A DNA stretch of 64,000 nucleotides from an uncultured Christensenellaceae bacterium. Its GTDB lineage: Bacteria > Bacillota > Clostridia > Christensenellales > UBA3700. The notes beneath the pieces are model-generated. The model was not told the DNA's origin and searched no databases. It saw only the letters and a program-made list of their open reading frames with translations. Both the position numbers and the translations under genes were made by a program. The stretch is taken from contig CALWKW010000002.1 of NCBI GenBank assembly GCA_944381365.1, positions 180,719 through 244,718 on the forward strand, read 5' to 3'. This document shows positions 27,809-63,111 of this stretch, piece by piece. The number at the start of each line of letters is the position of its first letter. Within the stretch, counting starts at the first letter, position 1.

Positions 27809-27847
27809 TATTTATATAATTTACCTAAGACTTAAATTATATAAATA
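27809..27847 (-). repeat. Dispersed spacer palindrome, copy 3
   Basis: TATTTATATAATTTA-CCTAAGACT-TAAATTATATAAATA; perfect 15-bp arms with compensatory C>T/G>A. Confidence 0.93.
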
Positions 27848-27930
27848 GCCCCAAAAGCCGTATATTTTTTTATCTTAAATTATTTGTCAAAACTTTTTTG
27901 TCGCATATTTTTAAATCAGGCTTTTTGCAT

Positions 27931-27956
27931 AAAAAATACGCCCCCTAAGGAGCGTA
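27931..27956 (-). terminator. Intrinsic terminator after the ferredoxin and sORF
   Basis: Minus strand TACGCTCC-TTAG-GGGGCGTA followed by T6. Confidence 0.85.
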
Positions 27957-27960
27957 CATC

Positions 27961-28023
27961 TTATTTGCTTGTAAAAGCCTTTGCGAATACCATCGGGCAA
28001 TCGCTTTTGAAGAACATATTCAT
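27961..28023 (-). CDS. Candidate 20-aa peptide MNMFFKSDCPMVFAKAFTSK
   Basis: GAGGT RBS 8 nt before ATG; stop 4 nt before the terminator stem. Confidence 0.4.
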   Translation of the reverse strand: MNMFFKSDCPMVFAKAFTSK

Positions 28024-28109
28024 TGTGCAATACCTCATACAGACATCTTAAGATGTCTTCTTGACACCAAAGAGTATATTGTCATACTCTTTGGCATAAA
28101 GTCTTTGGA

Positions 28110-28280
28110 TTATTCTTCGGAAATTGCAGAAACAGGACAACCTGCTGCACAAGCACCACAACTGATACATGTGTCTGCATCGATGATATATGTCTCGTCG
28201 CCTTCAGATATAGCTGATACGGGACATCCTTCTGCACAAGAACCACATTTAATGCAGTCGCCACCAATTACATATGCCAT
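28110..28280 (-). CDS. fdx: Clostridial 2[4Fe-4S] ferredoxin (56 aa, not in ORF track)
   Basis: MAYVIGGDCIKCGSCAEGCPVSAISEGDETYIIDADTCISCGACAAGCPVSAISEE; two CxxCxxCxxxCP motifs. Confidence 0.97.
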   Translation of the reverse strand: MAYVIGGDCIKCGSCAEGCPVSAISEGDETYIIDADTCISCGACAAGCPVSAISEE

Positions 28281-28590
28281 ATTACACCCTTCTCCTTTTT
28301 AGTTTTCTATGAATATTGTAGCACACGATTAAGCCTTTGTAAAGTGGTAAAAACCTTTTTTTACAATAGTCTAATAAAATCAGTGATTTTTGTTAAGTTT
28401 TAATTTTGTTTGAAGAATTAGCAATAATAATTCTAAACAAAAACAAGATAATAAATAAGTGTCGATTATTTATAGCCGAATATCAGGTAAACCGACTTTT
28501 ATTTTGTGCGTTTTGAGATATTTTTTGTACTCTTTTTTAAATTGTCGACAATTTTGTCGAATTTATTCTCGCTATATATCCCGATATATC

Positions 28591-29070
28591 TCATTCTTCT
28601 GTATTTTTATCGCAAAGAGGGACGAATTTTGCCCCTACGAAATCTGCTAATGAAAGAGGAGATATACATATCTGATGCCCGACTTTTCCTGCACTTACAT
28701 AAATTTCAGAAAAATTCTTTGCACTCTCGTCTATAAATGTCTTGAATCTCTTTTTCATGCCGATGGGCGAACATCCTCCGTGTATATATCCCGTGAGAGG
28801 TTCAAGCTCTTTTTGTTTTATCATGCTTACTGACTTAAAGCCCGCTTCCTTTGCCGCCATTTTCAAATCCAAAGTCGCACATACGGGCACGCAGAATACC
28901 GCATATTCTCTTTTGTCGCTTACCGTCACAAGCGTCTTGAATACGCATCGAGCGTCCTCGCCGAGTTGTCTTGCCACACTTTCGCCGTCAGTGATATCTG
29001 ATGGATATTCATATCCTTTGTATGCCACCTTTTTGGCATCGAGCATTCTCATAACATTGGTTTTTTCCAT
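28591..29070 (-). CDS. ybaK: Cys-tRNA(Pro) deacylase YbaK/EbsC
   Basis: KTNVMR, VFKTLVT and TGYIHGGCSPIGMK motifs; start set at MEKTN. Confidence 0.92.
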   Translation of the reverse strand: MEKTNVMRMLDAKKVAYKGYEYPSDITDGESVARQLGEDARCVFKTLVTVSDKREYAVFCVPVCATLDLKMAAKEAGFKSVSMIKQKELEPLTGYIHGGCSPIGMKKRFKTFIDESAKNFSEIYVSAGKVGHQICISPLSLADFVGAKFVPLCDKNTEE

Positions 29071-29156
29071 AAAACAAAATTCTCCAAAGAAATTTTTTTT
29101 GATTATATCACAAGCTTTTTTGAAAAGCAAACGGCAGAATGTATCTGCCGTCATTA

Positions 29157-30047
29157 TTATTTATCTTCTAATTGTTCGAGTGCTTTTTCGTCCTCTTCTT
29201 CTCTGTTGAGATTTTTCTTGACAGAATTGTTTTTGGGAGGGGCCAAAAGCTCGAATTCTCCGATATTGCAATATCTTTGCTCTACTCCGTCTTCCTTTTC
29301 GAGCGTGACTTTTATTCTTTCTTTGAGGACATCCACCTCTTCTACTCTTGCGGTGCCGTCCTGCAATTTTACTATCGAGCCTATCTTAGGCATAACCTTG
29401 TTGACTTGTGCATAAAAATCATTCTCGTACTTAAGACAGCACATGAGCTTTCCGCACATACCGCTTACCTTTGTGGGATTGAGAGACAAGTTTTGATTTT
29501 TTGCCATCTTCACGGTAGACTTTTCATAATCGGACAGATAGCTTATACAACAGCACTCTCTGCCGCATACGCCCATAGCACCTCTAAGTTTTATGTCATC
29601 TCTTTCATAAATCTGTCTGAGCTCTATTCTCATTCTCATCTCGCCCGCAAGGTCCTTGACGAGCTCTCTAAAATCCACTCTGCCGTCTGCGGTAAAGCTG
29701 AATATTATCTTTGATCTGTCAAAAGTATATTCTGCATCCACGAGCTTCATCTGCAAGCCGTGCTTGTCTATATGCTTCTGACATATTTTCATTGCTCCTG
29801 CTTTTTTCTCAAAATTTTCCTTGGCTCTTTGCTCGTCTTCTTTTGTAGCTTTTCTTACAACGGGCTTTAAAGGTACTTTTATCTCCTCGTCAGGCACATT
29901 TGTGTTTTGCTGACTTATGCGTGCAAATTCAAGACCTCTCACGGTCTCTACTATTACGCCGTCTCCTTCTTTGAATTCTATATTGAGCGGGTCGAAATAA
30001 TACTGTTTGCATGTCGAACCGAATTTTACACCTACAATTATCGGCAT
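29157..30047 (-). CDS. ricT: RicT/YaaT (PSP1 domain) protein
   Basis: RVDFRELVKDLA, CGRECCC and SGMCGKLMCCL motifs; follows holB. Confidence 0.92.
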   Translation of the reverse strand: MPIIVGVKFGSTCKQYYFDPLNIEFKEGDGVIVETVRGLEFARISQQNTNVPDEEIKVPLKPVVRKATKEDEQRAKENFEKKAGAMKICQKHIDKHGLQMKLVDAEYTFDRSKIIFSFTADGRVDFRELVKDLAGEMRMRIELRQIYERDDIKLRGAMGVCGRECCCISYLSDYEKSTVKMAKNQNLSLNPTKVSGMCGKLMCCLKYENDFYAQVNKVMPKIGSIVKLQDGTARVEEVDVLKERIKVTLEKEDGVEQRYCNIGEFELLAPPKNNSVKKNLNREEEDEKALEQLEDK

Positions 30048-30994
30048 AGGTATTTTACCTCCATGAGTTTGATAAACAAATAGTCGAGCACATTGCTTTC
30101 CTTGCAATTACTCTCGAGCTTTTGCTTTGATTCTATAATAAGTTTGTTGAAATTGACAAGTGATGATATGTTGAAGGTATCCTTGAGGCAGTTGACTTTT
30201 TCAAATCCGTCCACTCTTACGCCTGAAAGTTTTTTGAGCAAAACTCCCGTAATAAGCTGCATCATATCGAGATATCTCGAGAGTTTTCCTTCTTCGACAT
30301 TAAGACGCTGTTGCATTCTCAAATTGTCTTTTGTGGAAGTCATATCCTTGAGTATGAATATGACATTGGTCAAATCTCCTGCAAAGTCTTCGTCATGAAG
30401 AAGCTCTTCGCATCTTTTAAGACTTCCAAGACAACAATCTATTGCTTCTTTTACCAAAGCTTTGTTTGGATATTCATTATCTTTTTTGTCAAAATAATCC
30501 TGAAGCTGTGTTCTCGAAAAAGGCAAAATACTCAGTTTTTTGCTTCTCGATTTGATAGTGTCGAGTACTGCAGTCTGTCTTTGTACTCCCAACAAAAACA
30601 CTACATTTTCCGTAGGCTCTTCTAAGCTTTTGAGCAAAAAGTTTTGCACCTTCATATCCACTTCATCGAGTTTTCTCAATATCATAACCTTGTATTTTCC
30701 GTTTGGCTTGATATATACCTGCTCGACAAATTCTCTTATGCCGTCAGCTTTGAGATTTTTGGGCTCGAATACATCCTCGTGATTGCCGTCCTCGACTTTA
30801 AGACAATCCGTACATTGTCCGCATCCCCCCTCTTTGCACAAAATTCTTTGAGCAAAAAGCGTAATGAGATTGTCGAGTGCAAGCCCGTCCTCTCCCGTCA
30901 ACATATAACAATGATTGAGTCTGCCCTCGCTTATGTCGCTGTCCAGCACTTTATATGGTTTTGCATTTTCGAGAAGTTCACGATAAGCAAGCAT
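30038..30994 (-). CDS. holB: DNA polymerase III delta-prime subunit
   Basis: C...CGQCTDC zinc motif; QNFLLKSLEEP; tmk-holB-yaaT synteny. Confidence 0.88.
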   Translation of the reverse strand: MLAYRELLENAKPYKVLDSDISEGRLNHCYMLTGEDGLALDNLITLFAQRILCKEGGCGQCTDCLKVEDGNHEDVFEPKNLKADGIREFVEQVYIKPNGKYKVMILRKLDEVDMKVQNFLLKSLEEPTENVVFLLGVQRQTAVLDTIKSRSKKLSILPFSRTQLQDYFDKKDNEYPNKALVKEAIDCCLGSLKRCEELLHDEDFAGDLTNVIFILKDMTSTKDNLRMQQRLNVEEGKLSRYLDMMQLITGVLLKKLSGVRVDGFEKVNCLKDTFNISSLVNFNKLIIESKQKLESNCKESNVLDYLFIKLMEVKYLCR

Positions 30995-31617
30995 TACAAA
31001 ATCCCTCTTTGCTTCATAATCTCAACTATGTTTTTGTGTATTGTCTCTGCGTCCTCAGAGCAGTCCATATCGATTATTCTGTCCTTATAAAGTTTGAGAG
31101 CCTCTTTGTATCCCTCATAAACTTTGATATGAAATTCCATTCCCTCTTGCTCGAGTCTGTCGTCTTTGTCCGCTCCGCCTTTTCTCTTGAAAGCCTCTTT
31201 GGGAGGAAGGTCTAAAAATATCGTAAGGTCGGGCGTTATATCGTTGCAGGCAAGCTTGTTGAGAATATCTATTTTTTCTCCGCCAAGTCCTCTTGCTATG
31301 CCTTGATAGGCAAAAGTAGAATCAGTAAATCTGTCGCAAACCACCAATTTACCTTCTTCAAGAGCAGGACGAATGACCGCTTCTACAAGCTGAGCACGGG
31401 CAGCACTATAAAGCAATGCCTCGCACATGCCTGTCATTTCGCTGTTTTCTCTGTCAAGAATTATTGCCCTGATTTTTTCCGATATAGCATTTCCGCCGGG
31501 TTCTCTCAAAAAAACCGAATTTATATTGTTGTCATTGAGATATTTTTTCATCATAGCGAGCTGAGTGGTTTTGCCTACTCCTTCGCCGCCTTCGAATGTG
31601 ATAAATTTTCCTTTCAT
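30994..31617 (-). CDS. tmk: Thymidylate kinase
   Basis: FITFEGGEGVGKTT, REPGG and DRFTDSTFAYQG motifs. Confidence 0.97.
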   Translation of the reverse strand: MKGKFITFEGGEGVGKTTQLAMMKKYLNDNNINSVFLREPGGNAISEKIRAIILDRENSEMTGMCEALLYSAARAQLVEAVIRPALEEGKLVVCDRFTDSTFAYQGIARGLGGEKIDILNKLACNDITPDLTIFLDLPPKEAFKRKGGADKDDRLEQEGMEFHIKVYEGYKEALKLYKDRIIDMDCSEDAETIHKNIVEIMKQRGIL

Positions 31618-31635
31618 AAAATCTCCTGCTTATGT

Positions 31636-32907
31636 CTATTTTATCACAGCAACCTTGCCGCTAGCAAGTCCAAAAAGTCTATTCTTGTATTTTTTGACAA
31701 AAAGCACTGCCTCTTCATCAAATATATCTCCCTTGTGAATTACGGGAACCCCCGGGGGATAAATGCCTATTTCCCCTCCGCATTGTCTTCCTTCGGCGTC
31801 TAGAATATCCACAAGCTCTATCTCTGAACCTAAGACATCTTGATGCTTTAGTATAGGCAAGACGAATTTTTCTGAATCCTTAAGCTCTATATTGTCAAGC
31901 ACATCGGCAAGCATATCGAGTTTGTCCATATTAAAAGGCGTGACGATAAGCACCAAAGTATCACCGTAAGCCGTCTCGGCAAAAATGCCTTTTTGAGAAA
32001 GTATATGATTGAGTTCATAACAATCCTTGCCCTCGAATTTTATGACCACTCTTGAAAAATCTCTTGTATCAAGCACTTTTCCTTTTTTAAGTTTTTGAGA
32101 AAAATCCTGCACTCTTTTCTTCAATTCGGCATAATACATTTCGCCTTTTCTTTCCATCAAATCCAAGCCATAGTCTATGCTTGCCATTATAAGATAGCTC
32201 GGCGAAGTAGAATGCAACATCGCTCTTATCATTCTGCATTCTTCATAAATCTTTCCGTTTATCCCAATCATACCGCCGCCGCCGAAAACGGGCAATGTCT
32301 TGTGCATACCGACCAGTGCGATATCCGCATATTCGTGAGCATTGTCAGGTAATAGAGAAGAATATACAAAATGTGCCGAATGAGCTTCATCCACTATTAG
32401 CAATGCTCCGATTTTTTTTGCCATATCGCTCAAATCTTTTAGATTTTTTACATTGCCGAAATAGTCGGGCGATGTGACGAAAATACCGCCTATATTTTTT
32501 TCTTTTGCAAGGCTTTGCAATTCCTCCAAGTTGTCGGCAATAAAGACTTTGAGATTAAAAAGCGAACAAGCACTCCAAAAAGACTTGTGCATATCGCCGT
32601 AAGCCACGACATTTTCGCTGCGTCTTTTTGCGACATTGATTGCTATCTGCATGGCAATAGTCGCACCTTCTGTGAGCATGAGGGCATGCTTATATCCATA
32701 CCTTTTTGCCAAATTCTTTTCGCTTTGCAAAATTACTTCGCTGCTGTCCAAAAGATTGTCAAGCCCCTCTACTTCCGTCCAATCAAACACTGAGGCAGAA
32801 AATAGTCTTTCTTCCTCCACATCGATACCGCTGTGCCCGGGCATACAAAATCTTGCCTTGACTTTATCGGCATATTCTTTTAGTCTGTCGTATAAAGGTC
32901 TTGCCAT
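31636..32907 (-). CDS. Orn/Lys/Arg decarboxylase family (YaaO-like)
   Basis: MPGH, VDEAH, HKTLP, STSPSY and YPPGVP motifs. Confidence 0.9.
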   Translation of the reverse strand: MARPLYDRLKEYADKVKARFCMPGHSGIDVEEERLFSASVFDWTEVEGLDNLLDSSEVILQSEKNLAKRYGYKHALMLTEGATIAMQIAINVAKRRSENVVAYGDMHKSFWSACSLFNLKVFIADNLEELQSLAKEKNIGGIFVTSPDYFGNVKNLKDLSDMAKKIGALLIVDEAHSAHFVYSSLLPDNAHEYADIALVGMHKTLPVFGGGGMIGINGKIYEECRMIRAMLHSTSPSYLIMASIDYGLDLMERKGEMYYAELKKRVQDFSQKLKKGKVLDTRDFSRVVIKFEGKDCYELNHILSQKGIFAETAYGDTLVLIVTPFNMDKLDMLADVLDNIELKDSEKFVLPILKHQDVLGSEIELVDILDAEGRQCGGEIGIYPPGVPVIHKGDIFDEEAVLFVKKYKNRLFGLASGKVAVIK

Positions 32908-32963
32908 ATCCTGTTTATCAAAAAAGCGACCGCTAAGGTCGCCCTTTATTTTTTTTGATTTGA

Positions 32964-33437
32964 TTATTTGCTGATAGCCAAAATCTTGACTTCATAACTG
33001 TTGTCGCCAAGATTTACCTTTGCACTCTGTCCTACCTTCTTGCCGAGGATTGCCTGTGCCAAAGGAGATTCATTGCTGATTTTGTTTTCAAGAATAGAAG
33101 CTTCTGTCGTACCTACGATAGTGTACTCGCATTCTTCCTTTTCATCGCAATCATAAATTTTTACCTTACAACCGAGAATTACCGAATTAAGTTTTCCGTC
33201 TGTCTCTTCGATAATCTTTGCGTTGTCTACCTGAGCCTGTATTTTGATAATCTCTGACTCGATAAGAGCCTGATGATCTTTTGCTGCATCATATTCTGCG
33301 TTTTCTGACAAATCGCCGTATTCTCTGGCACGCTTGATTCTTTCGCTTGCCTCAATTCTGTCTACATTGATGAGATGATCGAGTTTTTTTACAAGATTGT
33401 CATAGCCTTCCTGTGTCAAAACATATTCTTTTGCCAT
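32964..33437 (-). CDS. greA: Transcription elongation factor GreA
   Basis: GDLSENAEYDAAK and ISNESPLA motifs. Confidence 0.97.
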   Translation of the reverse strand: MAKEYVLTQEGYDNLVKKLDHLINVDRIEASERIKRAREYGDLSENAEYDAAKDHQALIESEIIKIQAQVDNAKIIEETDGKLNSVILGCKVKIYDCDEKEECEYTIVGTTEASILENKISNESPLAQAILGKKVGQSAKVNLGDNSYEVKILAISK

Positions 33438-33478
33438 ATATCCTCCATGCCCTTAGGGGCAAAATTATATTCTGATAA

Positions 33479-34105
33479 TTAATTAGATTTTTTTTCTTTT
33501 CTGGATTTTGTGCGATAGCTGAGCACATACAGACTTTCGCTCATAGAAATGTTTTCTACCGTGACATCTTCAGGCACTTCCAATTCGATAGGAGCAAAAT
33601 TCCAAATACTCTTTACACCGTTTTCTATCAAAGCGTCAGCGACTTCTTTTGCGGAGTCTTTCTGAGTAGCGATTATTGCCATATCTACCTGATTCTGATT
33701 GAGATAAGTCTTGAGAAAATCCATTTGATAAACTTTTATGCCGTTGATGCTCGAACAACGAGGATCGATATCAAACAATGCTCTCACATAAAAGCCGTCA
33801 TCCTTAAATCCTTTATAGCCTGCAAGTGCACGACCGATATTGCCCGCACCTACAATAATAATATCATATACTTTGTCAAGACCGAGTATTCCTGCAAGCT
33901 CGTTTTTGAGTTTTACGACATCATAGCCATAGCCCTGCTGGCCGAAACCGCCGAAATTGCACAAATCCTGTCTTACTTGCGAAGCCGTGATATTGAGTAC
34001 GCTTGCAATCTTGTTGGAACTCACTCTTTCCACACCGCTGTCAGCAAGTTGTTTGAGGTGCCTGTAATATCTGGGCAACCTCTTTATTACCGCCTCTGAA
34101 ATCAT
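33479..34105 (-). CDS. rex: Redox-sensing repressor Rex (start at MISEA)
   Basis: RLPRYYR, QVRQDL..FGGFGQQGYGY, GAGNIG and WNFAP motifs; AAGGAGGTG RBS. Confidence 0.96.
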   Translation of the reverse strand: MISEAVIKRLPRYYRHLKQLADSGVERVSSNKIASVLNITASQVRQDLCNFGGFGQQGYGYDVVKLKNELAGILGLDKVYDIIIVGAGNIGRALAGYKGFKDDGFYVRALFDIDPRCSSINGIKVYQMDFLKTYLNQNQVDMAIIATQKDSAKEVADALIENGVKSIWNFAPIELEVPEDVTVENISMSESLYVLSYRTKSRKEKKSN

Positions 34106-34469
34106 ATAGCACACCTCCTTTTCCTCAATAACATATAATATTCTAATAAACAAATGGTTGTTTTGTCAATAGTTTTGACTTTTGTTTGGACAACAATTTG
34201 TCAAAAAATTGTCATTTAGGATAAAGATTTTGAGTTTTTTATCACAACCAAAGATTAATAGGCATTGCAAAAGAAAAATACTTTCTCAAAGAAAAAAACA
34301 AAAAATAAAGCCTTTTTTGTCTGGCATTTATATTTTTGACCGCAAGATGCTATTCATTACAACATTTTCGCACTAAAACTTTGATAAGAAATTTTTTATA
34401 TTTTATTGAGATAAAAGCATAAAAAACAAACTTATCGCACAATATTATCAATACCTCATTCGTCAAAAC

Positions 34470-34498
34470 TTGACATAGCTCTTTTGCTAATGTAAACT
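34470..34498 (+). promoter_or_regulatory. SigmaA promoter positioned for a leaderless mRNA
   Basis: TTGACA-N17-TAAACT; ATG 6 nt downstream; no SD. Confidence 0.65.
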
Positions 34499-34504
34499 TA
34501 GATT

Positions 34505-34765: not shown

Positions 34766-34974
34766 TCTTTTATTTTTAGATTTTAACGCATTTATATCAT
34801 TTTATGACAAAAACAAAAAGGCACTCATTAGGTGCCTTTTTTGTGCTTTTTGTGCCTTTTTTCTATCTCTTTGTAAAAACATATAAATAAGCAAGGGGAT
34901 TTATATGTTTTTATTAATATATTTATCTATACTATTTATTTTAGCTCAAAAAGTTTTTGTTTTTCTTTTATTGC

Positions 34975-38563: not shown

Positions 38564-38566
38564 GAT

Positions 38567-39657: not shown

Positions 39658-39696
39658 TATTTATACAATTTAAGCCTTAGGTAAATTGTATAAATA
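39658..39696 (+). repeat. Dispersed spacer palindrome, copy 4
   Basis: TATTTATACAATTTA-AGCCTTAGG-TAAATTGTATAAATA; perfect 15-bp arms. Confidence 0.95.
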
Positions 39697-39728
39697 GGGG
39701 ATCGCATGTATGCGTGCGTACAAAATAC

Positions 39729-40926: not shown

Positions 40927-40948
40927 TACCGCAAAATTAAATTAATAT

Positions 40949-47090: not shown

Positions 47091-47126
47091 AAAAACAAGA
47101 CAGCTTGCATTTGCGAGCTGTCTTGT
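47091..47126. terminator. Terminator between convergent hydA and phosphatase genes
   Basis: ACAAGACAGCTTGC/GCGAGCTGTCTTGT stem with an A tract on the left. Confidence 0.8.
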
Positions 47127-47161
47127 GCGTATATGCGGATGCACGATAAGATAATTACTTC

Positions 47162-47202
47162 TAATTTATACAATTTAAGCCTTAGGTAAATTGTATAAAT
47201 TA
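47162..47202 (+). repeat. Dispersed spacer palindrome, copy 5
   Basis: TAATTTATACAATTTA-AGCCTTAGG-TAAATTGTATAAATTA; perfect 16-bp arms. Confidence 0.95.
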
Positions 47203-57400: not shown

Positions 57401-58324
57401 TCGTCTTATGTAGTGGACATCGTTTGTAGCGACAAGCTTGACATTGAGCTCTTTTGCAAGTCTTACGAGATCGTCTCTTATACGGCGTTGCTCTTCAAGA
57501 CCGTGGTCCTGAAGCTCGATATAAAAGTCGCCTTCCTCAAACATGTTTTTGAGTTTTGTGGCATACTCTTTTGCTCCTTCATAGTCGCCCATGAGAAGCA
57601 ATCTGGGAATTTTGCCCGAAAGACAGGCAGATAGACATATTACGCCTTTTGAGTGTTTTGCAAGTAAGTCAAGGTCAATTCTCGGCTTATAATAAAATCC
57701 GTCTATGTACGCAAGCGAATCCATCTTTACAAGATTGCGGTATCCTTCATTGTTTTTGGCAAGAAGTACCAAGTGATTACGCTCGTTGCTGTCAGTACTG
57801 TACATATTTTCGCATGTATAGAATTCACAGCCAATTACAGGATTGAGGTTTCGCTCCTGTGCCGCCTTGTAGAATGTATATGCTCCAAACATATTTCCGT
57901 GGTCAGTAAGTGCACAACCTGGCAAACCCAATTTTACGCATTCGTCAAGCAAAGGAGAATCGTGTCCTTTTGTTATTCTTGCAAGTCCGTCCAAAAGAGA
58001 ATATTCTGAGTGGACATGCAAATGTATAAAAGGCTTTTTGTCGTTTTCTTTTTTTACCTTTTCTTCTTTATCGGATTTGTCCTCTTTTTTGTCTTTTTTC
58101 TCCTCTGCTTTTTTATCTTTAGTTTGGTCGTTGTCTGATTTTTTTGCATCGGAAGAATTGTCCTCAGCTTTTTCTGACGACTCGATTTTTTCTTTATCGG
58201 ATTTTTCTTTTTGGATATCTTCAGAAATTGTCTTGGCTTTATGCTCGGGCTTGTCCGACTCCATCATCTTGTCAAGACTATCCAAAAGTCCTCCGCTGAT
58301 ATCTTCAAATTTATTCTCTTCCAT
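54434..58324 (-). CDS. dnaE: DNA polymerase III alpha subunit DnaE with ~97 aa charged N-terminal extension
   Basis: PHP motif HLHVHSEYSLLDG; GRGSG; PDFDVDF; KMDFLGL; YAFNKSHAAAY. Confidence 0.97.
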   Translation of the reverse strand: MEENKFEDISGGLLDSLDKMMESDKPEHKAKTISEDIQKEKSDKEKIESSEKAEDNSSDAKKSDNDQTKDKKAEEKKDKKEDKSDKEEKVKKENDKKPFIHLHVHSEYSLLDGLARITKGHDSPLLDECVKLGLPGCALTDHGNMFGAYTFYKAAQERNLNPVIGCEFYTCENMYSTDSNERNHLVLLAKNNEGYRNLVKMDSLAYIDGFYYKPRIDLDLLAKHSKGVICLSACLSGKIPRLLLMGDYEGAKEYATKLKNMFEEGDFYIELQDHGLEEQRRIRDDLVRLAKELNVKLVATNDVHYIRREDYVSQDLLVRINTGKTINDVTGMEMGSDQFYLKSYEEMKEIFSWCPEALTNTIEVMNKCHVIIEKEDLYPPYTPEDGSTPPEYLRKLAYEGLERRYGTITDEIRERAEYELGIIIRTGFAEYYLIVWDFINYARTQKIPVGPGRGSGVGSIIAYAIGITNLDPLKYSLIFERFLNPERVSAPDFDVDFCMDRRGEVIEYVIRKYGKEKVCQILALGTMKAKGAIKDVARVYNVPLDIVNATTKLIPNAPGVTLDKVLGRSKSTKEEDLKLKNPEVIEIYNNNPEMHRVIDMALNIEGLPRNCSKHAAGVVICKEVISDHVPLQRNGPDITTQFQKEEVEQLGMLKMDFLGLTTLTDIDKALKYVKENHGVEIDFDKLGYEDEEVYKLIGTGETEAVFQLESAGMKSFLKSYQPKNLEEVIAGISLYRPGPMSCIPDYLNARANRDLIQYDAPQLEKILDVTFGFFVYQEQVMQAVQYCAGYTMGRADNLRRAMGKKKVEVMNAEKTVFINGCPAVPEKRNEQGIVIQKAAPAVEGAIHRGISKEKAEKIFDTMADFAKYAFNKSHAAAYATLTYQTAYLKRYYMLELFAAVINNRITKSDEIAKYLAYVKNYNKKVYPPDINKSSVIFTVENNDGLRFGLGGIKNVGEAAMQAVVEERKKNGEYKSISDLLSRLPAGTVNKKMVECLIKAGAFDCFGHTRAAMMASYESIMLVNMYDKKMQANGQISLFGLLDEEEQSTEDNIPYLKEFPDKQLLSMEKEMLNVYVSGHPLDEYREEMQKYDFNLSKLSDILSKNLDEDELEESDIELINQYENKDVVFGCMMSGIQKKTTKSGTIMAYAKLEDLYAEIEGVVFPKMYDKYRDLLVNDNIVMIRGTVKRNNGKININITEIQPWNKNEEQTQTDNPAQEHKVNASSQKVYIKIDDMKSYREVLDLIELFPGVTPVVFKMFYDSKAQLYSKGVTVKENFVNRIKAIVGANNIVVKDMK

Positions 58325-59255
58325 CGTATTCTCCCTCTGCTATCTCCAATATCTTGTTGAGAGCTCTCGACAAACTCGTCTTGCTCATTGACAATTTGTC
58401 TGCAAGCTCTTTCATGCTGTCCTCTTTGTTTTCAAGTCTTGCTATGGCTATCTTCTTGAGTTTTGCATCAAGACTTTCTATGAGTCCTTTTTCCTCCAAA
58501 AATTTTATGGCGTCAGTGTATTTTTTTACACCTGCCAGCATTTTGTTGTAATTAGCCATATAAAAATTGCTCATTCTGTTGAATTCGTTTTCGTTTTCTC
58601 TTTGAGCAAGAATATTGTTGAGCTCCAAGACGCAATTATTTGCATTGCACATCGCAAGGATATCCGCTATATCGCTGCTGTTTCTCGATTGCAAAATCTG
58701 TCCCGTCTTGGTGTCAGTTTGTTTTAGCTCTATGTTATAGCCTGCCATTTTGTCAGAAAAAGCCTTGCAATACTCTTCATCGCTGAAGGATATCTGCAAA
58801 GAATAGTTTGAGTATTCCTCATCGGGAAACCTGAGTTTTCCCGTCACAAGCAAAAGACCTTTGAGATATGAATAAAAAAGTTTGTCATCATTCAAAGACA
58901 AAAGATATTTTACTCCGTTGTCCACCACAAAATTATCTTCTTCATAGTGGCTGAGATGCAATGTTTTTAGCAATTCGTCTGCCGAATTGTCCTTTACCTC
59001 TATTCTGTATACGCTTTCGCCTCTTGCACCTTTTTGCACAAAAAACACATCTTCTTTGCAAAATTCTCTCACTATCGGCAATACAGCAAGGGCATCGTCT
59101 TTTGACTTGAATTCATAAGTAAGCGTGACTGATTTTTTGTACAACTCGATTACGCCGCAAATTTTTGTCACGGCGACAAGAAAAGGAAGCTTATGCTCCC
59201 CGTCTTTGGGTATCTTTTCGATAATATCTTTTTTGAGTCGGTCAGTAAAATCCAT
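58311..59255 (-). CDS. whiA: DNA-binding protein WhiA (divergent)
   Basis: YLKG LAGLIDADG-like helix; NR..N...AN; C-terminal HTH; position upstream of dnaE. Confidence 0.8.
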   Translation of the reverse strand: MDFTDRLKKDIIEKIPKDGEHKLPFLVAVTKICGVIELYKKSVTLTYEFKSKDDALAVLPIVREFCKEDVFFVQKGARGESVYRIEVKDNSADELLKTLHLSHYEEDNFVVDNGVKYLLSLNDDKLFYSYLKGLLLVTGKLRFPDEEYSNYSLQISFSDEEYCKAFSDKMAGYNIELKQTDTKTGQILQSRNSSDIADILAMCNANNCVLELNNILAQRENENEFNRMSNFYMANYNKMLAGVKKYTDAIKFLEEKGLIESLDAKLKKIAIARLENKEDSMKELADKLSMSKTSLSRALNKILEIAEGEYDGRE

Positions 59256-59313
59256 AGCTTTTAATTCTCTTATGTCTATACTGAAAAATATCAGCTAAAA
59301 TACTTTTTCCCTT

Positions 59314-60075
59314 CTAACGCTTTGATCTCAAATCAAGCTTTTTGCCGCAAATGTTGGCAATTCTCTCTTCGGGGATATCAAATTTTTTCACAAGCTCCAA
59401 AGCAAAATCGCAGCTTGCTATGTTATCGGGTTTGTGTGCGTCAGAATTGATTACAAAATTGCAGTCTGTGGAAAGAAGCTGCTCTATGCTCTTATCGTCA
59501 GGAGTCTTGTGTCTTGACGATAGCTCCACATAAGTGCCGTAGTCCGCACATACCTTGCCCACTTCTTTATAGTCTATATCAAGTCTGAATCCGGGGTGAG
59601 TAAGAATGTCTATCTTGTGCCTTTTGATTGCGTTGACAAACATTGTGGTATTGCGTGCTATCTGTCCTTTTGTGGACTTCATAGTGTACTTTGTGAGAGC
59701 ATTCCAAGTAATTTTGAAATAATCGCTGAATTTATAGGGAAAAGATGTGAGATGATATCCTGCCAAGACAATATCGAGTTTTTTCATGTCATCGTCCTTG
59801 ACATCGATATCCCCCGCCATACCGAGTATATTTGCCTCTATACCCAAAAGAAGAGTGAGCGAATCAAAGTTCTTTTGCACTTCTTCAAGGTCCTTTCTCA
59901 TCTTGTCATACTTTTTGGGACTTACGCCGACAATAGGATGTCTTACGGCATGGTCAGTAATAGCCAGAATTTCCAAGCCTTTTTGGCTTGCGGCTTTTGC
60001 ATTGTCCATAATCGTACCGCTGCCGTGCGAATACCTCGTATGGGAATGATAATCAGCTGTCAGCCTAATATCCAT
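59314..60075 (-). CDS. PHP-domain phosphoesterase
   Basis: DYHSHT, ITDH, GIEANI and NSDAH motifs. Confidence 0.92.
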   Translation of the reverse strand: MDIRLTADYHSHTRYSHGSGTIMDNAKAASQKGLEILAITDHAVRHPIVGVSPKKYDKMRKDLEEVQKNFDSLTLLLGIEANILGMAGDIDVKDDDMKKLDIVLAGYHLTSFPYKFSDYFKITWNALTKYTMKSTKGQIARNTTMFVNAIKRHKIDILTHPGFRLDIDYKEVGKVCADYGTYVELSSRHKTPDDKSIEQLLSTDCNFVINSDAHKPDNIASCDFALELVKKFDIPEERIANICGKKLDLRSKR

Positions 60076-60123
60076 TACAGCTTGTCCTCCATTGTTTTTA
60101 CGGACAAAAGAATGTCCGAATAA

Positions 60124-60996
60124 TCAAAATATATCTACTTCATATTGTAGCTTAATATCAAATAGTTTGTCAACTTCTTGCCTTGCATAATTGCCAAGCT
60201 CGAGAAAGTCCGAAGCGGTCGCATTGCCTGTGTTGAGTATAAAATTCGCATGCTTTTCGGATATCTTTGCACCTCCAATCTTCATACCTTTCAAGCCCGC
60301 TTTGTCGATATAATATCCCGCCGATACTTCCCCTGCTTTTTTAAAAGTGCTGCCCAAAGATATACCCGAAGGCTGACTTTTTTGTCTTGCAAGCCTATAT
60401 GCCATCATATCCCTTGCGATAATATTTCTGTTCCCACGGCTCAATTCTATACATGCCCCGATTGCAATTCCTCGTTCTTTAAGGCAAGAGTGTCTGTAAG
60501 AAAAATCCATATTGCAAGCTTTTATTCTCTCTATTTCCCCGTCAACCAATATATCGACATACTCAATCACATCAGCGATTTGTCTGCCGTATGCCGAACA
60601 ATTCATTGCTATTCCCCCCCCTATCGTCCCCGGGATAGAGCACAATCCTTCAAGTCCGCTCAAGCCTCTTTCTAAGGCAAGTTTTGCAAGCTTTGGAAGG
60701 CTTTCGCCTGCATTGACATACAAGACATTTTCATTGCACTCGATACCTTTAAGCTCTTTTGTGCAAATGACCACTCCGTCAATGCCTTCATCCTTTATAA
60801 GCACATTTGTGCCATTGGCGATAATCTTATAATTTTCGCCTGCTCTTTTCAATAAGTCTACCGCCTGAATAAGCTCCCATTTGTCCGTAGGAAAAATCAC
60901 TGCACCTATGTTGCCGCCGCATCTGAATGCCGACAATGAAGGGTGCGAAAATACCACTTTAGAATCGAGTTCTGTCAAAAAAGATAATCTGTCCAT
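60124..60996 (-). CDS. murB: UDP-N-acetylenolpyruvoylglucosamine reductase
   Basis: GTNVL, GLEGL..IPGTIGG, GSTFK and SEKHANF motifs. Confidence 0.93.
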   Translation of the reverse strand: MDRLSFLTELDSKVVFSHPSLSAFRCGGNIGAVIFPTDKWELIQAVDLLKRAGENYKIIANGTNVLIKDEGIDGVVICTKELKGIECNENVLYVNAGESLPKLAKLALERGLSGLEGLCSIPGTIGGGIAMNCSAYGRQIADVIEYVDILVDGEIERIKACNMDFSYRHSCLKERGIAIGACIELSRGNRNIIARDMMAYRLARQKSQPSGISLGSTFKKAGEVSAGYYIDKAGLKGMKIGGAKISEKHANFILNTGNATASDFLELGNYARQEVDKLFDIKLQYEVDIF

Positions 60997-61086
60997 AATA
61001 AAGTATATTCTGGTAGATTAACTAATTATACAAATTCGTAATTATAAATTTATCATTAAAAAAAAGGAGGTTTCACCTCCTTTTTA

Positions 61087-61692
61087 TTAGAATTCTTTTT
61101 TATTATATATTTTCAGTGAAATAAAATAGGAAACAATGATTGACAACAATATAACAAATAAACTAATTATACTTATTATTGCTCCTGATGTTATATTTAT
61201 CTTTTTAAATACAAATTCTGCAATGCCTATCATAAAACATACAGCTATTAATATTATGGCAATAAGAAATATCCTTGATTTTTCAACTCCGAATTTATAA
61301 ATAGCAGGCAAACAACAAGAAATCACTATTATTTGAAACAATATAAGTATTACCAATTCTGCCCAAGAATTTTCTTGTGTTTTGATTAAAGCAAAAGCAA
61401 CTATGCTAAAAAGATTTGCTATAATCCCCACTCCTACTCCTATAACATATTTTTCCAGAACTATTATTTTAGGATTAAGACCACTGGCAGCAACAAATTT
61501 TGGCCAACTGTCTCTTTCTTCATAAGCGAATGTGGTCATAATTATGCTTATTTCACTCACAATTCCCATTGCATATAAATAACTTATATTTTTTAATAAT
61601 ACTGATACGACAAAACAAATGATTACTGTGGCTAAATACCATAAAATCATTTTTTTTGTATTACATAAATCTTTAATCAACAATCCTATCAT
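61087..61692 (-). CDS. ABC-2 transporter permease
   Basis: MIGLLIKD start; KFGVEKSR; about 6 TM; C-terminal YNKKEF. Confidence 0.88.
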   Translation of the reverse strand: MIGLLIKDLCNTKKMILWYLATVIICFVVSVLLKNISYLYAMGIVSEISIIMTTFAYEERDSWPKFVAASGLNPKIIVLEKYVIGVGVGIIANLFSIVAFALIKTQENSWAELVILILFQIIVISCCLPAIYKFGVEKSRIFLIAIILIAVCFMIGIAEFVFKKINITSGAIISIISLFVILLSIIVSYFISLKIYNKKEF

Positions 61693-62534
61693 ATATTTTC
61701 TCCTTTAGAATAAAACAGCATTATATCTTCGAGTTTCACAGGTCTGTATTCAAAATTTGCGGGCATAAGTTTTTTTATTGCCAACAAATCCAAGCCATAA
61801 CTTCTTCTCAGAATTTTTACTATTGCATTCTTGTCCAATTCTTTTAAAATTTTTTCTTCTATGCCATAAACAGCATATTTTTCTAAAATTTTATCTTTTT
61901 CTTCGTCCAATTCTATTTTTCCTTTATGCAAATAAACTATATAATCGCATAATTTTTCCAAATCAGATGTAATGTGCGAAGATATTAACACTGATTTTTT
62001 GCCGTCTTGAATATAATCATACAACATTGATAATATTTCATCTCTCACGACAGGATCAAGTCCGCTTGTAGGTTCGTCAAGAATTAAAACATCATTGTCA
62101 TAAGAAAATGCCACTGCCAAAGCGAGCTGCATTTTCATGCCTTTTGAAAATGACTTGATTGATTGTTTTTTAGGCAAATTAAATTTGTTTACATAACTAT
62201 TAAATTTGTCGCTATGCCAAGTAGAATATATATTTTTTAAAACCTTATCTAATGTATTTATATTTAACTCCAAAGGCAATCCCGTATCATCCAACACAAC
62301 CCCTATTTTTTGTCTTTCTGATTTAGAAAGGGTGTTTATTTCTTTCCCTTTAAAAAAGATTTGTCCGCTGTCCGGATGGATTGCATTTATGATTGACTTA
62401 ATAATTGTACTTTTTCCTGCTCCGTTTTCTCCTACAAGCCCGACCACTACTCCCTCGGGAATACTGAATGAGATGTTTTTCAAATTAAATTCGCTGTATT
62501 GTTTGCATACATTTTTTAATTCAACTATTTTCAT
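61689..62534 (-). CDS. ABC transporter ATP-binding protein (YtrB-like)
   Basis: GENGAGKST, FSKGMKMQ and LDEPTSGLDP motifs; start at MKIVE. Confidence 0.93.
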   Translation of the reverse strand: MKIVELKNVCKQYSEFNLKNISFSIPEGVVVGLVGENGAGKSTIIKSIINAIHPDSGQIFFKGKEINTLSKSERQKIGVVLDDTGLPLELNINTLDKVLKNIYSTWHSDKFNSYVNKFNLPKKQSIKSFSKGMKMQLALAVAFSYDNDVLILDEPTSGLDPVVRDEILSMLYDYIQDGKKSVLISSHITSDLEKLCDYIVYLHKGKIELDEEKDKILEKYAVYGIEEKILKELDKNAIVKILRRSYGLDLLAIKKLMPANFEYRPVKLEDIMLFYSKGENI

Positions 62535-62542
62535 ATTAAATA

Positions 62543-62914
62543 TCAACCTCTGTAAATTAATTTTACGCAATTTATAAATTCTTCTTCGCTAATATTGCAT
62601 CTTTTTGCCAAATCGCTTGCTTTCGATATACATTCTTCCATTTCAGCAAGATTTTTTTCTCTTATAAATTCTTTATTTTTCTCTGCTACAAAACTACCTT
62701 TTCCTACTACAGAATAAATATATCCGTCCCTCTCCAAATCAGCGTATGCCCTTGCCGTTGTAATAACACTTATTCTTAAATCTTTTGCAAGCCCCCTTAT
62801 TGTCGGTAAAGCTTGCCCTTCTTTTAGTGTAGAATCTAAAATCATGTTTTTTATCTGCTCATATATTTGTTCATATAATGACTTATCTGATGTATTTGAT
62901 ATAAATATATTCAT
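62543..62914 (-). CDS. GntR/YtrA-family regulator
   Basis: LYEQI, LPTIRGLA, RAYADLE and GKGSFV motifs; short C-terminus. Confidence 0.94.
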   Translation of the reverse strand: MNIFISNTSDKSLYEQIYEQIKNMILDSTLKEGQALPTIRGLAKDLRISVITTARAYADLERDGYIYSVVGKGSFVAEKNKEFIREKNLAEMEECISKASDLAKRCNISEEEFINCVKLIYRG

Positions 62915-62931
62915 TTTTTCCTCTTTATTGA

Positions 62932-62973
62932 ATTGTATATATTGATTATATACAATATGACATTAAATGTCAA
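62932..62973 (-). promoter_or_regulatory. SigmaA promoter overlapped by a YtrA-type operator
   Basis: TTGACA-N17-TATAAT on minus (62945-62973); ATTGTATAT-N7-ATATACAAT, equal to TGTA-N13-TACA, at 62932-62956. Confidence 0.85.
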
Positions 62974-62998
62974 TAGATTAATAAAAAAATTTTTAGTT

Positions 62999-63035
62999 AA
63001 AAAGACATGACTTTGTCATAAAGTCATGTCTTTTT
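62999..63035. terminator. Bidirectional terminator downstream of the GH13 gene
   Basis: AAAAAGACATGACTTT-GTCAT-AAAGTCATGTCTTTTT. Confidence 0.88.
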
Positions 63036-63070
63036 ATTAATTATATTATATTTATTCTTTTATCATATAG

Positions 63071-63111
63071 TTATTTATATAATTTAAGCCTTAGGTAAAT
63101 TATATAAATAA
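63071..63111 (+). repeat. Dispersed spacer palindrome, copy 6
   Basis: TTATTTATATAATTTA-AGCCTTAGG-TAAATTATATAAATAA; perfect 16-bp arms, compensatory variant. Confidence 0.95.

What the first reader, a model, noticed from the sequence alone, without database searches (positions are those of the whole stretch)
27809..63111. Arms of the palindrome covary: copies differ but each stays perfectly self-complementary
Seen: copies 3 and 6 have TATATAATTTA/TAAATTATATA where copies 1, 2, 4, 5 have TATACAATTTA/TAAATTGTATA, so both arms changed together. Outer arm bases also differ between copies (TAATA, TAATT, TATT, TTATT) yet are always mirrored. Spacer variants (AGCCTTAGG, AGTCTTAGG, AGTCTTGGG) still allow an inner YC/GG pair after an AG bulge, through a G-T wobble on one strand only. 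Inference: selection acts on a folded hairpin or cruciform with an extrahelical AG, reminiscent of folded ssDNA substrates such as attC or IS605 ends. Alternatively the arms are homogenised by template switching.
Basis: partly seen in the sequence, partly recalled or inferred. Interest (0 to 1): 0.7.

Follow-up and report, generated by a model that had tools for sequence, protein, structure and literature searches.

The report
Self-symmetrising palindromic repeat of Christensenellaceae
A 39-41-base AT-rich palindrome scattered between genes in four related uncultured gut bacteria keeps its two arms perfectly matched, flips its 9-base centre, and is an undescribed relative of the small "REP-like" repeats, with no known enzyme to explain it.

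Summary
The window holds six copies of TATAYAATTTA-N9-TAAATTRTATA, and the genome holds 27, all intergenic and none decayed. Three of the 22 other species of the genus hold 24-30 copies each. These four species are each other's closest relatives on three of four proteins compared.

- **Arm pairing:** across 110 copies the arms pair over 15-16 bp, and 7 of 1650 arm cells are mismatched.
- **Source of the covariation:** most of the raw signal comes from three outer-arm subfamilies and one T:A subfamily that expanded in this genome.
- **Changes in place:** orthologous loci still show five compensated changes, including the series A:T, then A·C, then G:C.
- **Rates at orthologous loci:** inner arms are 99-100% identical where flanks are random. 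Outer pairs that differ between loci stay put at 8 of 11 loci, against 3.6 expected.
- **Spacer flips:** the 9-nt spacer is inverted in place in 6 of 23 ortholog groups.
- **Chimeric copies:** two copies are chimeras joined inside the palindrome.

My reading is a selected, symmetric, hairpin-capable element. Its double changes and flips are probably made by templated copying.

The family tests for attC, IS605, REP-RAYT, MITE, terminator and operator all fail. The proposed AG bulge with an inner pair does not hold in the wider set. The element's function and its trans-acting factor remain unknown.

The scan has noted loop flips attributed to template switching in two other genomes.

The parts
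10127..10167 (-). Copy 1: 16-bp arms, spacer AGCCTTAGG read on the - strand, unique outer type TAATA/TATTA. It lies between a Zn-ribbon protein gene and the S10 operon.
   Evidence: orthologous copies L025, L058 (flipped) and L081
15296..15336 (+). Copy 2: 16-bp arms, spacer AGTCTTGGG, between convergent M1-peptidase-like and aminotransferase genes.
   Evidence: orthologues L024, L050 and L080 (flipped)
27809..27847 (-). Copy 3: T:A variant, 15-bp arms, spacer AGTCTTAGG on the - strand, upstream of pyrB. It is a gain specific to this genome.
   Evidence: absent from the orthologous pyrB upstream region of G021, G014, G010, G002 and G011
39658..39696 (+). Copy 4: 15-bp arms, spacer AGCCTTAGG, between a DnaC/IstB-like gene and a convergent gene of unknown family.
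   Evidence: orthologues L023, L051, L079 in the same orientation
47162..47202 (+). Copy 5: 16-bp arms, spacer AGCCTTAGG, downstream of an [FeFe]-hydrogenase gene.
   Evidence: orthologues L053 and L077 are flipped
63071..63111 (+). Copy 6: T:A variant, 16-bp arms, spacer AGCCTTAGG. It lies 9 nt past the stop of an alpha-amylase-domain gene and 161 nt upstream of a GntR-family gene.
10177..10200 (.). 24-nt strictly alternating purine-pyrimidine, G+C-rich tract beside copy 1 (companion module).
15273..15286 (.). Alternating purine-pyrimidine tract beside copy 2.
39703..39722 (.). Alternating purine-pyrimidine tract beside copy 4. It sits on the other side of the palindrome relative to the AG end of the spacer, and the same holds in the three orthologues.
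47124..47137 (.). Alternating purine-pyrimidine tract beside copy 5.
10200..10230 (.). Canonical bidirectional terminator hairpin (12 pairs, A-run and T-run) abutting the tract of copy 1.
47095..47126 (.). Terminator-like hairpin (11 pairs) abutting the tract of copy 5.
62998..63036 (.). 17-pair bidirectional terminator hairpin 35 nt from copy 6.

Best explanation
The palindrome is the core of an undescribed, clade-restricted, low-copy dispersed intergenic element of the REP-like kind. It has 15-16 bp AT-rich arms around a 9-nt asymmetric spacer of the form AGNCTTNNG, often with an alternating purine-pyrimidine tract and a terminator next to it. It is maintained as a symmetric, hairpin- or cruciform-capable unit. 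The inner 11 bp of each arm and part of the spacer are under purifying selection on their sequence, which implies an unidentified sequence-specific factor. The outer 4-5 pairs are constrained only to stay complementary. Changes reach both arms together because the element copies itself onto itself. Replication template switching within the palindrome, and/or gene conversion between copies, either erases a new arm mutation or writes it into the other arm in one step. The same process inverts the spacer. New copies arise rarely. Shown here: the family, its distribution, the conservation, the compensated changes in place, the flips, the chimeras and the gains. Inferred: selection on pairing, templated copying as the route, and the existence of a trans-acting factor.
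For: **Family and distribution.**
- There are 27 copies in the genome, and 27 of 27 are intergenic by crude ORF calls.
- There are no decayed copies, and solo arms (16) are at chance level.
- It is the only recurrent perfect inverted-repeat family in the genome.
- It occurs in 4 of 23 species of the genus and in none of 18 genomes of other genera searched.
- A scan of 185,579 species genomes returned 76 stretches: 75 in three Christensenellaceae MAG records and 1 unrelated.
- The carriers are mutually closest on 3 of 4 proteins compared.

**Sequence constraint.** Over 71 strictly orthologous pairs the 11-nt arms are 99-100% identical, including this genome against the others. The spacer is 70-77% identical and the flanks 31-40%.

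**Constraint on pairing.**
- Pairs 9-47 (A:T 48, T:A 46, G:C 2) and 12-44 (T:A 77, A:T 21) vary between loci but are almost never mismatched.
- The outer type is retained at 8 of 11 orthologous loci, against 3.6 expected (p 0.0035). All 3 changes there are compensated.

**Templated route.**
- Four of the six covarying pairs are A:T/T:A swaps, which have no wobble intermediate.
- The spacer is flipped with conserved flanks in 6 of 23 strict ortholog groups. One case is between the two closest species, whose re-oriented spacers are 135 of 135 identical.
- One locus shows the series A:T (this genome), A·C (L057), G:C (L026).
- Copies L033 and L044 are chimeras whose junction lies inside the palindrome.
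- Papers report that template switching keeps short inverted repeats perfect in bacteria (PMC5941160, passages read) and that it causes arm homogenisation and spacer inversion (PMC8604942, abstract in the search listing).

**Gains.** Two of two genome-specific T:A copies tested are absent from the orthologous sites of relatives and outgroups.
Against: - No trans-acting factor was found, so 'functional' rests on conservation alone.
- Most covarying cells come from three old outer-arm types and one T:A subfamily, that is from descent. The independent events are few: about ten compensated changes at minimum, five of them in place.
- The test for slow evolution of the outer pairs has only 11 loci. 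Columns 10-11 of the outer block are invariant.
- Flips and double changes can equally come from gene conversion by another copy aligned in reverse, so template switching inside one palindrome is not shown.
- Selection for pairing does not say which molecule folds, and a duplex site bound by a symmetric oligomer is not excluded.
- One of four proteins (a 150-aa phosphatase) does not rank the carriers as closest.
- All genomes are MAGs, and raw reads were not available to verify the flips. Logan contigs of two other samples do agree with the spacer orientation of copies 1 and 2.
Confidence: 0.5

Rival explanations
1. It is a duplex binding site of a symmetric (dimeric or tetrameric) clade-specific DNA-binding protein, possibly a chromosome-domain organiser. 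Arm symmetry is then a neutral by-product of templated homogenisation and not of selection on a fold.
For: - The primary sequence of the inner arms is near-invariant with a fixed 9-bp spacing, which puts the arm centres two helical turns apart.
- Spacer orientation is irrelevant to the flanks.
- Copies are confined to C2:160-377 kb, C3:95-145 kb and C6. There are none on the other 1.06 Mb, including the origin contig C7 and the terminus contig C1.
- In G010 the first copy lies about 157 kb from dnaA on the same contig.
Against: - Complementarity extends into positions whose base identity is free (columns 9 and 12). These evolve slowly and only in compensated fashion. A protein indifferent to the base there should tolerate asymmetric sites.
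- The asymmetric spacer is itself conserved (C27 and T28 in 110 of 110 copies).
- No candidate protein was found.
- The flanking genes share no theme.
Confidence: 0.22
2. It is an RNA-level element: a 3'-UTR hairpin that stabilises or processes transcripts, or terminates them, as is described for REP sequences.
For: - 24 of 26 copies with two called neighbours face at least one gene 3' end. There are 10 convergent against 2 divergent gene pairs.
- Copies 4 and 6 lie between a stop codon and the next canonical terminator, so they should be transcribed.
Against: - Many copies lie beyond a canonical terminator.
- The stem has one G:C pair and no U-tract.
- The covariation is mostly transversion swaps rather than G:U-mediated transitions.
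- There is no Rfam match.
Confidence: 0.12
3. It is a folded single-stranded DNA substrate of a recombinase or transposase, like an integron attC site or an IS200/IS605 or REP end.
For: - It is a hairpin-capable palindrome with an asymmetric centre.
- Copies are occasionally gained at new sites.
- Copies persist vertically with a conserved sequence, as described for REPIN-RAYT systems (abstracts in the listing).
Against: - No intact Y1 transposase is present in the carriers. G000 has a decayed IS200 remnant whose hairpins are unrelated, G010 has none, G014 has a 34-bit piece at a contig end, and G021 has 22 bits. Intact genes sit in the non-carriers G004, G005, G006 and G009.
- TnpB is found in 0 of 23 genomes.
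- Integron integrase is over cut-off in 0 of 23 genomes, and G000 has a single tyrosine-recombinase-like frame, at the terminus.
- There are no cassette arrays: spacing is 1.5-57 kb, both orientations occur, and housekeeping genes lie between copies.
- There is no orientation bias along one replichore: 9 + and 6 - on C2.
Confidence: 0.08
4. There is no constraint on symmetry. The apparent covariation is only descent from a few master copies of a young selfish repeat.
For: - Three outer types (AATT 53, TATT/AATA 29, TATA 21) cover 103 of 110 copies.
- Five of the six T:A copies of this genome have no orthologue elsewhere.
Against: - By protein matches to the flanks, 20 of 27 copies share at least one flank, and 11 share both, with a copy in another species. 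The family therefore predates the species splits.
- Five compensated changes occurred in place.
- The arms are identical where the flanks are saturated.
Confidence: 0.05

Closest known systems
REP / REPIN elements with RAYT transposases (Enterobacteria, Pseudomonas)
   Same: Both are short dispersed extragenic palindromes, mostly near gene 3' ends. Both are vertically inherited at orthologous sites, keep a conserved sequence over long times and gain copies rarely. The REPIN-RAYT description comes from abstracts in the listing: PMC3337134, PMC3116915 and 10.1101/2021.07.10.451892.
   Different: The carriers have no RAYT or other Y1 transposase. The arms are perfect and AT-rich, not imperfect and G+C-rich. 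There are only about 24-30 copies. No decayed copies exist. Copies are confined to part of the chromosome. The host is Clostridia.
Quasipalindrome template-switch mutation (Ripley model): arm homogenisation and spacer inversion
   Same: Double changes appear in both arms. Inversion of the spacer is precise and the flanks are kept. One intermediate state was caught at a single locus. Papers: PMC5941160 (passages read), and PMC8604942 and PMC7202029 (abstracts in the listing).
   Different: That is a mutational process, not an element. Here it acts on a conserved multi-copy family whose arms evolve far more slowly than neutral, which the process alone does not explain.
Bacterial interspersed mosaic elements (BIMEs) of E. 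coli (recalled, not read here)
   Same: The build is modular: the palindrome is combined with other short motifs (an alternating purine-pyrimidine tract, a terminator, an AT-rich tail) in variable arrangements between genes.
   Different: The motifs and the host are different, and no evidence was obtained here for binding of gyrase, IHF or polymerase.
Integron attC sites
   Same: Both are imperfect-centre palindromes that could fold, and in both conservation concerns structure more than sequence in the outer stem.
   Different: There is no IntI and there are no cassette arrays. The asymmetry lies in the loop, not as extrahelical bases in the stem. The inner stem sequence is invariant.
IS200/IS605 ends
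   Same: Both involve hairpin-capable DNA.
   Different: There is no TnpA or TnpB. The palindromes are solitary and do not flank a gene as left and right ends.
CIRCE-type operators (inverted repeat with a 9-bp spacer; recalled)
   Same: Both are inverted repeats with a fixed 9-bp spacer and a conserved arm sequence.
   Different: There are 27 sites with no regulon theme, and they lie mostly at gene 3' ends rather than in promoters.
Hairpin-loop 'minute inversions' in chloroplast non-coding DNA (recalled, not read here)
   Same: The loop between short perfect inverted repeats flips recurrently between close relatives while the stem and flanks stay.
   Different: Those are single-locus hairpins, not a dispersed sequence family.

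Membership tests
REP/REPIN-RAYT | Dispersed short extragenic palindromes in many copies | tested here: met
   27 of 27 copies are intergenic, and three relatives hold 24-30 copies each.
REP/REPIN-RAYT | A cognate single-copy Y1 (RAYT) transposase gene, PF01797 | tested here: not met
   G000 has a 22-bit piece that is a decayed IS200 with unrelated G+C hairpins. G010 has none, G014 has 34 bits at a contig end, and G021 has 22 bits. Intact genes occur only in non-carriers. The genomes are 94-96% complete.
REP/REPIN-RAYT | Imperfect palindrome with a conserved 5' tetranucleotide such as GTAG (feature recalled) | tested here: not met
   The alignment of 110 copies shows perfect AT-rich arms and no such motif.
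IS200/IS605 ends | tnpA and/or tnpB between left and right subterminal hairpins | tested here: not met
   PF01797 as above. PF07282 is found in 0 of 23 genomes. Flanking genes are housekeeping.
Integron attC | Integron integrase IntI | tested here: not met
   TIGR02249 is over cut-off in 0 of 23 genomes, and the best score in G000 is 36.7 bits against a cut-off of 265.
Integron attC | Arrays of co-oriented promoterless cassettes, each ending in a site | tested here: not met
   Spacing is 1.5-57 kb, orientations are mixed, and ribosomal, tRNA-synthetase and metabolic genes lie between copies.
Integron attC | Extrahelical bases in the stem that mark the recombined strand | tested here: not met
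   The stems are perfect. The only asymmetry is the 9-nt loop, and the proposed bulge with an inner pair fails in 45 of 99 sequences.
MITE | A parent insertion sequence with the same terminal inverted repeats | tested here: not met
   The arm word outside palindromes occurs 16 times, which is chance level, and is never followed by the spacer.
MITE | Target-site duplication | tested here: inconclusive
   None is evident at the two gains, but the surrounding spacers are not alignable base by base.
Rho-independent terminator | G+C-rich stem followed by a T-run | tested here: not met
   There is one G:C pair in 15-16 and no T-run, and separate canonical terminators stand beside the copies.
Transcription-factor operator / regulon | Promoter-proximal position and a functional theme among the regulated genes | tested here: not met
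   There are 10 convergent, 2 divergent and 14 co-directional settings, and the Pfam content of 55 flanking proteins is mixed.
Template-switch (quasipalindrome) dynamics | Arm homogenisation together with spacer inversion | tested here: met
   Compensated changes occurred in place, and flips are seen in 6 of 23 ortholog groups. The polymerase step itself cannot be tested with these tools.
Any Rfam RNA family | Covariance-model match | tested here: not met
   No match falls at the palindromes in the window at gathering score, nor in 10 loci at E up to 0.1.

The most novel reading that the evidence does not exclude
The palindromes are the cognate sites of an unidentified protein specific to this small Christensenellaceae clade. 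The protein reads them as extruded hairpins or cruciforms. The sites mark a chromosomal belt that starts about 157 kb from oriC and is absent from the origin and terminus regions. This would be a structure-reading, domain-restricted DNA system that also keeps its own sites perfect. In effect it would be a REP-like replicator or organiser that works without a RAYT.
Probability: 0.15. Interest if true: 0.8.

Novelty: new variant of a known kind. Interest (0 to 1): 0.5.

Why it matters
Small dispersed palindromes are known mainly from Proteobacteria, where a dedicated transposase (RAYT) explains how they persist. This family sits in uncultured gut Clostridia and shows the same long-term, site-stable persistence with near-perfect conservation, but none of the enzymes tested for. 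It also gives an unusually clean natural record of how a palindrome evolves: compensated double changes, an intermediate caught between sister species, precise loop flips and chimeric copies. The 110 copies in four species separate three layers of constraint, namely sequence (inner arms), pairing only (outer arms) and orientation-free (spacer). Few bacterial repeat families allow that. If a factor is found, it would be a new kind of partner for such repeats. If none exists, the family shows how far templated self-correction plus selection can carry a repeat. In practice, the repeats break short-read assemblies of these genomes and mark at least one deletion junction.

Tried and rejected
- **Expression and population state.** Only Logan contigs were served, not raw reads. 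RNA-labelled runs held small shares. Contigs simply stop at the palindromes, and the few 'joints' between copies 1 and 2 have sides of 21-32 nt, so they look like repeat-induced graph joins. Nothing can be said about transcription, transcript ends or flip-flop heterogeneity.\n- **Wider occurrence.**\n - The metagenome-contig scan used a pattern that leaves the arms free. It gave 78 hits and 0 family members.\n - The viral-contig scan gave 13 chance hits in very AT-rich giant-virus bins with unrelated spacers.\n - Plasmids and phages gave no match.\n - One hit in a Clostridium sp. MAG has an unrelated spacer.\n- **Rearrangement at the palindrome in L046.** The difference from its orthologues is a 1.2-kb indel 81 nt away, not at the palindrome.\n- **Empty-site comparison at copy 4.** Outgroup species are not syntenic enough there and carry other repeat families.\n- **Promoter idea for the AT-rich tail.** The tail has no consistent relation to downstream gene direction. 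Consensus promoter hits in such AT-rich DNA are uninformative.\n- **Supercoil-sink idea (cruciform plus Z-DNA-like tract).** The sites favour convergent 3' ends rather than divergent promoters, so I did not adopt it. It remains untested.\n- **Literature.** String searches for the arm and spacer words gave 28 papers, and the 15 listed were unrelated. A search for Christensenellaceae plus palindromic, intergenic and repeat gave 2 unrelated papers.\n- **First fuzzy-regex scan.** It timed out and was replaced by nhmmer.

Full report
**Observation.** The arm word TATAYAATTTA occurs 12 times in the window against 0.21 expected, always as two inverted arms around 9 bases. The six palindromes start at 10132, 15301, 27813, 39662, 47167 and 63076. 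The finding's range covers only the last four. As single-stranded DNA each copy folds into a 15-16 bp stem with a 9-nt loop. The free energy is -8.1 to -10.7 kcal/mol, with z-scores of -4.5 to -7.4 against shuffles.

**Size and spread of the family.** The window is G000:C2:180719-244718 of a 1.86-Mb assembly in 9 contigs.
- The genome holds 27 copies, 21 C:G and 6 T:A, with no mixed ones.
- A profile search adds only two weak, unrelated hits, so there are no decayed copies.
- Solo arms (16) are at the number expected from base composition.
- No other perfect inverted repeat recurs in the genome.
- Of 41 related genomes, only G010, G014 and G021 hold the family, all in the same genus. They carry 24, 29 and 30 real copies.
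- A scan of one genome for each of 185,579 species returned 76 stretches. Of these, 75 lie in three MAG records titled uncultured Christensenellaceae or Christensenella, and one lies in a Clostridium sp. MAG with an unrelated spacer.
- Viral contigs, metagenome contigs, plasmids and phages gave nothing of the family.
- The carriers are each other's nearest relatives for a DnaC-like protein (65-67% against at most 62%), for PyrB (92-93% against 82%) and for a 1296-aa RNA polymerase subunit (87-89% against 74-82%). A 150-aa phosphatase disagrees.
- A single origin in their common ancestor is the simplest reading.

**Setting.** By crude ORF calls, all 27 copies are intergenic. Ten lie between convergent genes, two between divergent genes, 14 between co-directional genes (7 in each orientation), and one at a contig end. 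The neighbouring genes are an ordinary mix with no transposase or recombinase. They include the S10 operon, pyrB, rpsF-ssb-rpsR, tRNA synthetases, glycosidases and regulators.

Many copies are part of a longer mosaic. A G+C-rich tract of strictly alternating purines and pyrimidines lies 35-52 nt from the palindrome centre in 11 cases. These 11 make up half of the 21 such intergenic tracts in the genome. The tract often abuts a canonical terminator, and an AT-rich tail follows. Similarity between copies reaches from about -75 to +45 around the core.

Copies occur only on C2:160-377 kb, C3:95-145 kb and C6. None lies on the other 1.06 Mb, which includes the origin contig (dnaA on C7) and the contig with the terminus-type skew switch (C1). 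In G010, dnaA and three copies share a contig, and the nearest copy is about 157 kb from dnaA. I cannot explain this restriction.

**Covariation.** All 110 copies align without gaps.
- With the stem written over columns 6-23 and 33-50, the arms are essentially always paired from column 9 to column 23.
- Covarying pairs are 9-47 (A:T 48, T:A 46, G:C 2, G·T 1, other 2), 12-44 (T:A 77, A:T 21, other 1), 13-43 (T:A 97, A:T 2), 17-39 (C:G 90, T:A 7, T·G 2), 19-37 (A:T 96, T:A 3) and, more loosely, 8-48.
- The covariation score, the count of cells changed on both sides and the percentage paired exceed 500 of 500 shuffles and all slid controls.
- 105 of 110 copies have perfect arms of 15 or 16 bp. 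Seven of 1650 arm cells, in five copies, are mismatched.
Columns 27-31 are unpaired in 45 of 99 distinct rows. The pairing of columns 26-32 follows trivially from a near-invariant G.

**How much is descent?** A great deal. Three outer-arm types (AATT 53, TATT/AATA 29, TATA 21) cover 103 of 110 copies.

The T:A variant of this genome behaves as a young subfamily. Five of its six copies have no orthologous copy in the other species. The two I tested are absent from the orthologous sites of relatives and outgroups. These are the copy upstream of pyrB, which is window copy 3, and the copy between truA and a phosphatase gene. In the second case a 127-nt spacer in this genome compares with 20 nt in G014. 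So the family does gain copies.

**What descent does not explain.**
- Protein matches of the flanks place 20 of 27 copies next to at least one gene that also flanks a copy in another carrier. Strict two-flank orthology defines 23 groups with 69 copies.
- Within these groups five compensated changes happened in place. They are column 12 (window copy 1 against L025), column 13 (L084 and a G014 copy against this genome), column 9 A:T to T:A, column 9 T:A to G:C (L078), and one series of three states. In that series this genome has A:T, G010 has A·C and G014 has G:C at the same locus.
- The uncompensated states are few and young. They are T·G at column 17 in L026 and L044, G·T at column 9 in L044, A·C in L057, and A·A in L074.
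- Counting subfamily origins as well, at least about ten independent compensated changes are needed.

**Rates.** Over 71 strictly orthologous pairs, the 11-nt arms are 99-100% identical, even between this genome and the other three. The spacer, re-oriented, is 70-77% identical. The 40 nt on either side are 31-40% identical without gaps, which is the random level for this composition.

Unbiased arm-to-arm copying cannot slow substitution, because a new mutation is as likely to be doubled as erased. The inner arms, and C27, T28 and other spacer positions, must therefore be under purifying selection on their sequence. This implies a sequence-specific reader.

The outer pairs are more telling. Their base identity is free between loci, yet the outer type is retained at 8 of 11 loci shared by this genome and the others. 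The expectation is 3.6 (permutation p 0.0035), and the three changes are all compensated. That is the signature of a constraint on pairing. The sample is small.

**Flips and chimeras.** The asymmetric spacer is inverted relative to conserved flanks in 6 of 23 strict groups. Between this genome and the others it is flipped in 3 of 9, 3 of 7 and 4 of 7 pairs. It is flipped in 1 of 15 pairs between the two closest species, whose spacers are otherwise 135 of 135 identical.

In the group of C2:160213 the right flank is shared by all four species while the spacer points both ways. In the group of C2:164717, L026 and L057 share the left flank but have opposite spacers.

Two copies are chimeras.
- L033 joins the left flank and TATA-type left arm of the L082 locus to the AATT-type right arm and flank of the L083 locus. 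In G021 these two copies lie 3.7 kb apart in the same orientation, so the junction of a deletion (or insertion) lies inside the palindrome.
- L044 has the left flank and left arm of the L026-type locus and the right half of its own orthologue.

At orthologous loci the spacer also switches between its two main classes (CCTTANG and TCTTGGG) in 7 of 11 groups that include this genome. This points to exchange between copies.

**Mechanism.** Four of the six covarying pairs are A:T/T:A swaps, which have no wobble intermediate. Together with the precise spacer inversions, this is what templated copying produces. Template switching between the arms of short inverted repeats is documented to keep them perfect in bacteria (PMC5941160, passages read). 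It is also reported to cause arm homogenisation and spacer inversion (PMC8604942 and PMC7202029, abstracts seen in the listing).

Because every copy is a palindrome, conversion by another copy aligned in reverse would give the same products. I cannot separate the two routes. The scan's earlier notes on two other genomes reached the same reading for loop flips. Those notes are not independent evidence.

My account is therefore selection for a symmetric, foldable unit with a sequence-specific core, with templated copying as the way double changes and flips arise.

**Family tests.**
- **REP/RAYT and IS200/IS605:** no intact Y1 transposase is present in the carriers. The only G000 match is a decayed IS200 with unrelated G+C hairpins. 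There is no TnpB in any of 23 genomes.
- **Integron:** no IntI is over cut-off in 23 genomes, G000 has a single tyrosine-recombinase-like frame that sits at the terminus, and there are no cassette arrays.
- **MITE:** there is no parent element.
- **Terminator:** the stem has one G:C pair and no T-run, and real terminators stand alongside.
- **Operator:** there is no theme and the position is wrong.
- **Rfam:** nothing.
- **Closest known kind:** the REP/BIME type of dispersed palindrome, from which this differs in composition, perfection, copy number, lack of a cognate transposase, and regional restriction.

**Limits.** All genomes are metagenome bins. Contigs of two other samples do agree with the spacer orientation of copies 1 and 2. 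Gene calls are crude. The clade inference rests on four proteins. No factor was identified. No paper on this element was found by the searches.

Noticed in passing
window 10177-10200, 15273-15286, 39703-39722, 47124-47137 (and 7 more in the genome): G+C-rich tracts of strictly alternating purine and pyrimidine (up to 24 nt, some themselves palindromic) lie 35-52 nt from palindrome centres. These 11 account for half of the 21 such intergenic tracts in the genome. They have Z-DNA-like composition and their role is unknown.
   Followed up: partly
G000 contigs C2:160-377 kb, C3:95-145 kb, C6; G010:C2: All 27 copies lie in about a fifth of the assembly. They are absent from the origin contig (dnaA on C7) and the terminus contig (C1). 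In G010 the nearest copy is about 157 kb from dnaA. The stretches that carry copies are syntenic between the carriers.
   Followed up: partly
window 15340-15470; G000:C2 about 256.35-256.5 kb; L015, L048, L064, L077: A stretch of about 100-240 nt just beyond the palindrome is conserved between several loci and species (69-87% identity). It has no long ORF and no Rfam match. It could be an unknown leader or small RNA, or a further module of the mosaic.
   Followed up: no
L094-L112 (congeners without the palindrome): At the site orthologous to window copy 4, many other species of the genus carry a different short repeat family with G+C-containing hairpins. Some of these species have intact Y1 transposase genes. 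This may be a REP-RAYT-type system in the sister lineages.
   Followed up: no
G000:C4:36366-36674: A decayed IS200-type tnpA remnant (102-aa open frame with the middle missing) is flanked by two near-identical G+C hairpins.
   Followed up: partly
G014:C13:14218 (L033) versus G021:C15:24169 and 27943 (L082, L083): A 3.7-kb segment lying between two palindrome copies in one species is missing in another, and the junction is inside a now chimeric palindrome.
   Followed up: partly
G000:C1:329169 and C4:76133: Two 35-bp perfect palindromes with a 1-nt centre and arms ending in TTGAACA look like operators of an unknown regulator. Their outer bases resemble the arm of the repeat studied here, which is possibly coincidence.
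   Followed up: no
window 9331-10652: The non-coding gap upstream of the S10 ribosomal protein operon is unusually long at 1.3 kb. Copy 1 lies 800 nt from rpsJ, and no RNA family match was found in the gap.
   Followed up: no
G000:C1:97.8-98.6 kb: The only tyrosine-recombinase-like frame found in this genome with the integron-integrase model lies at the GC-skew switch. This is where a Xer-type recombinase next to dif would be expected.
   Followed up: no
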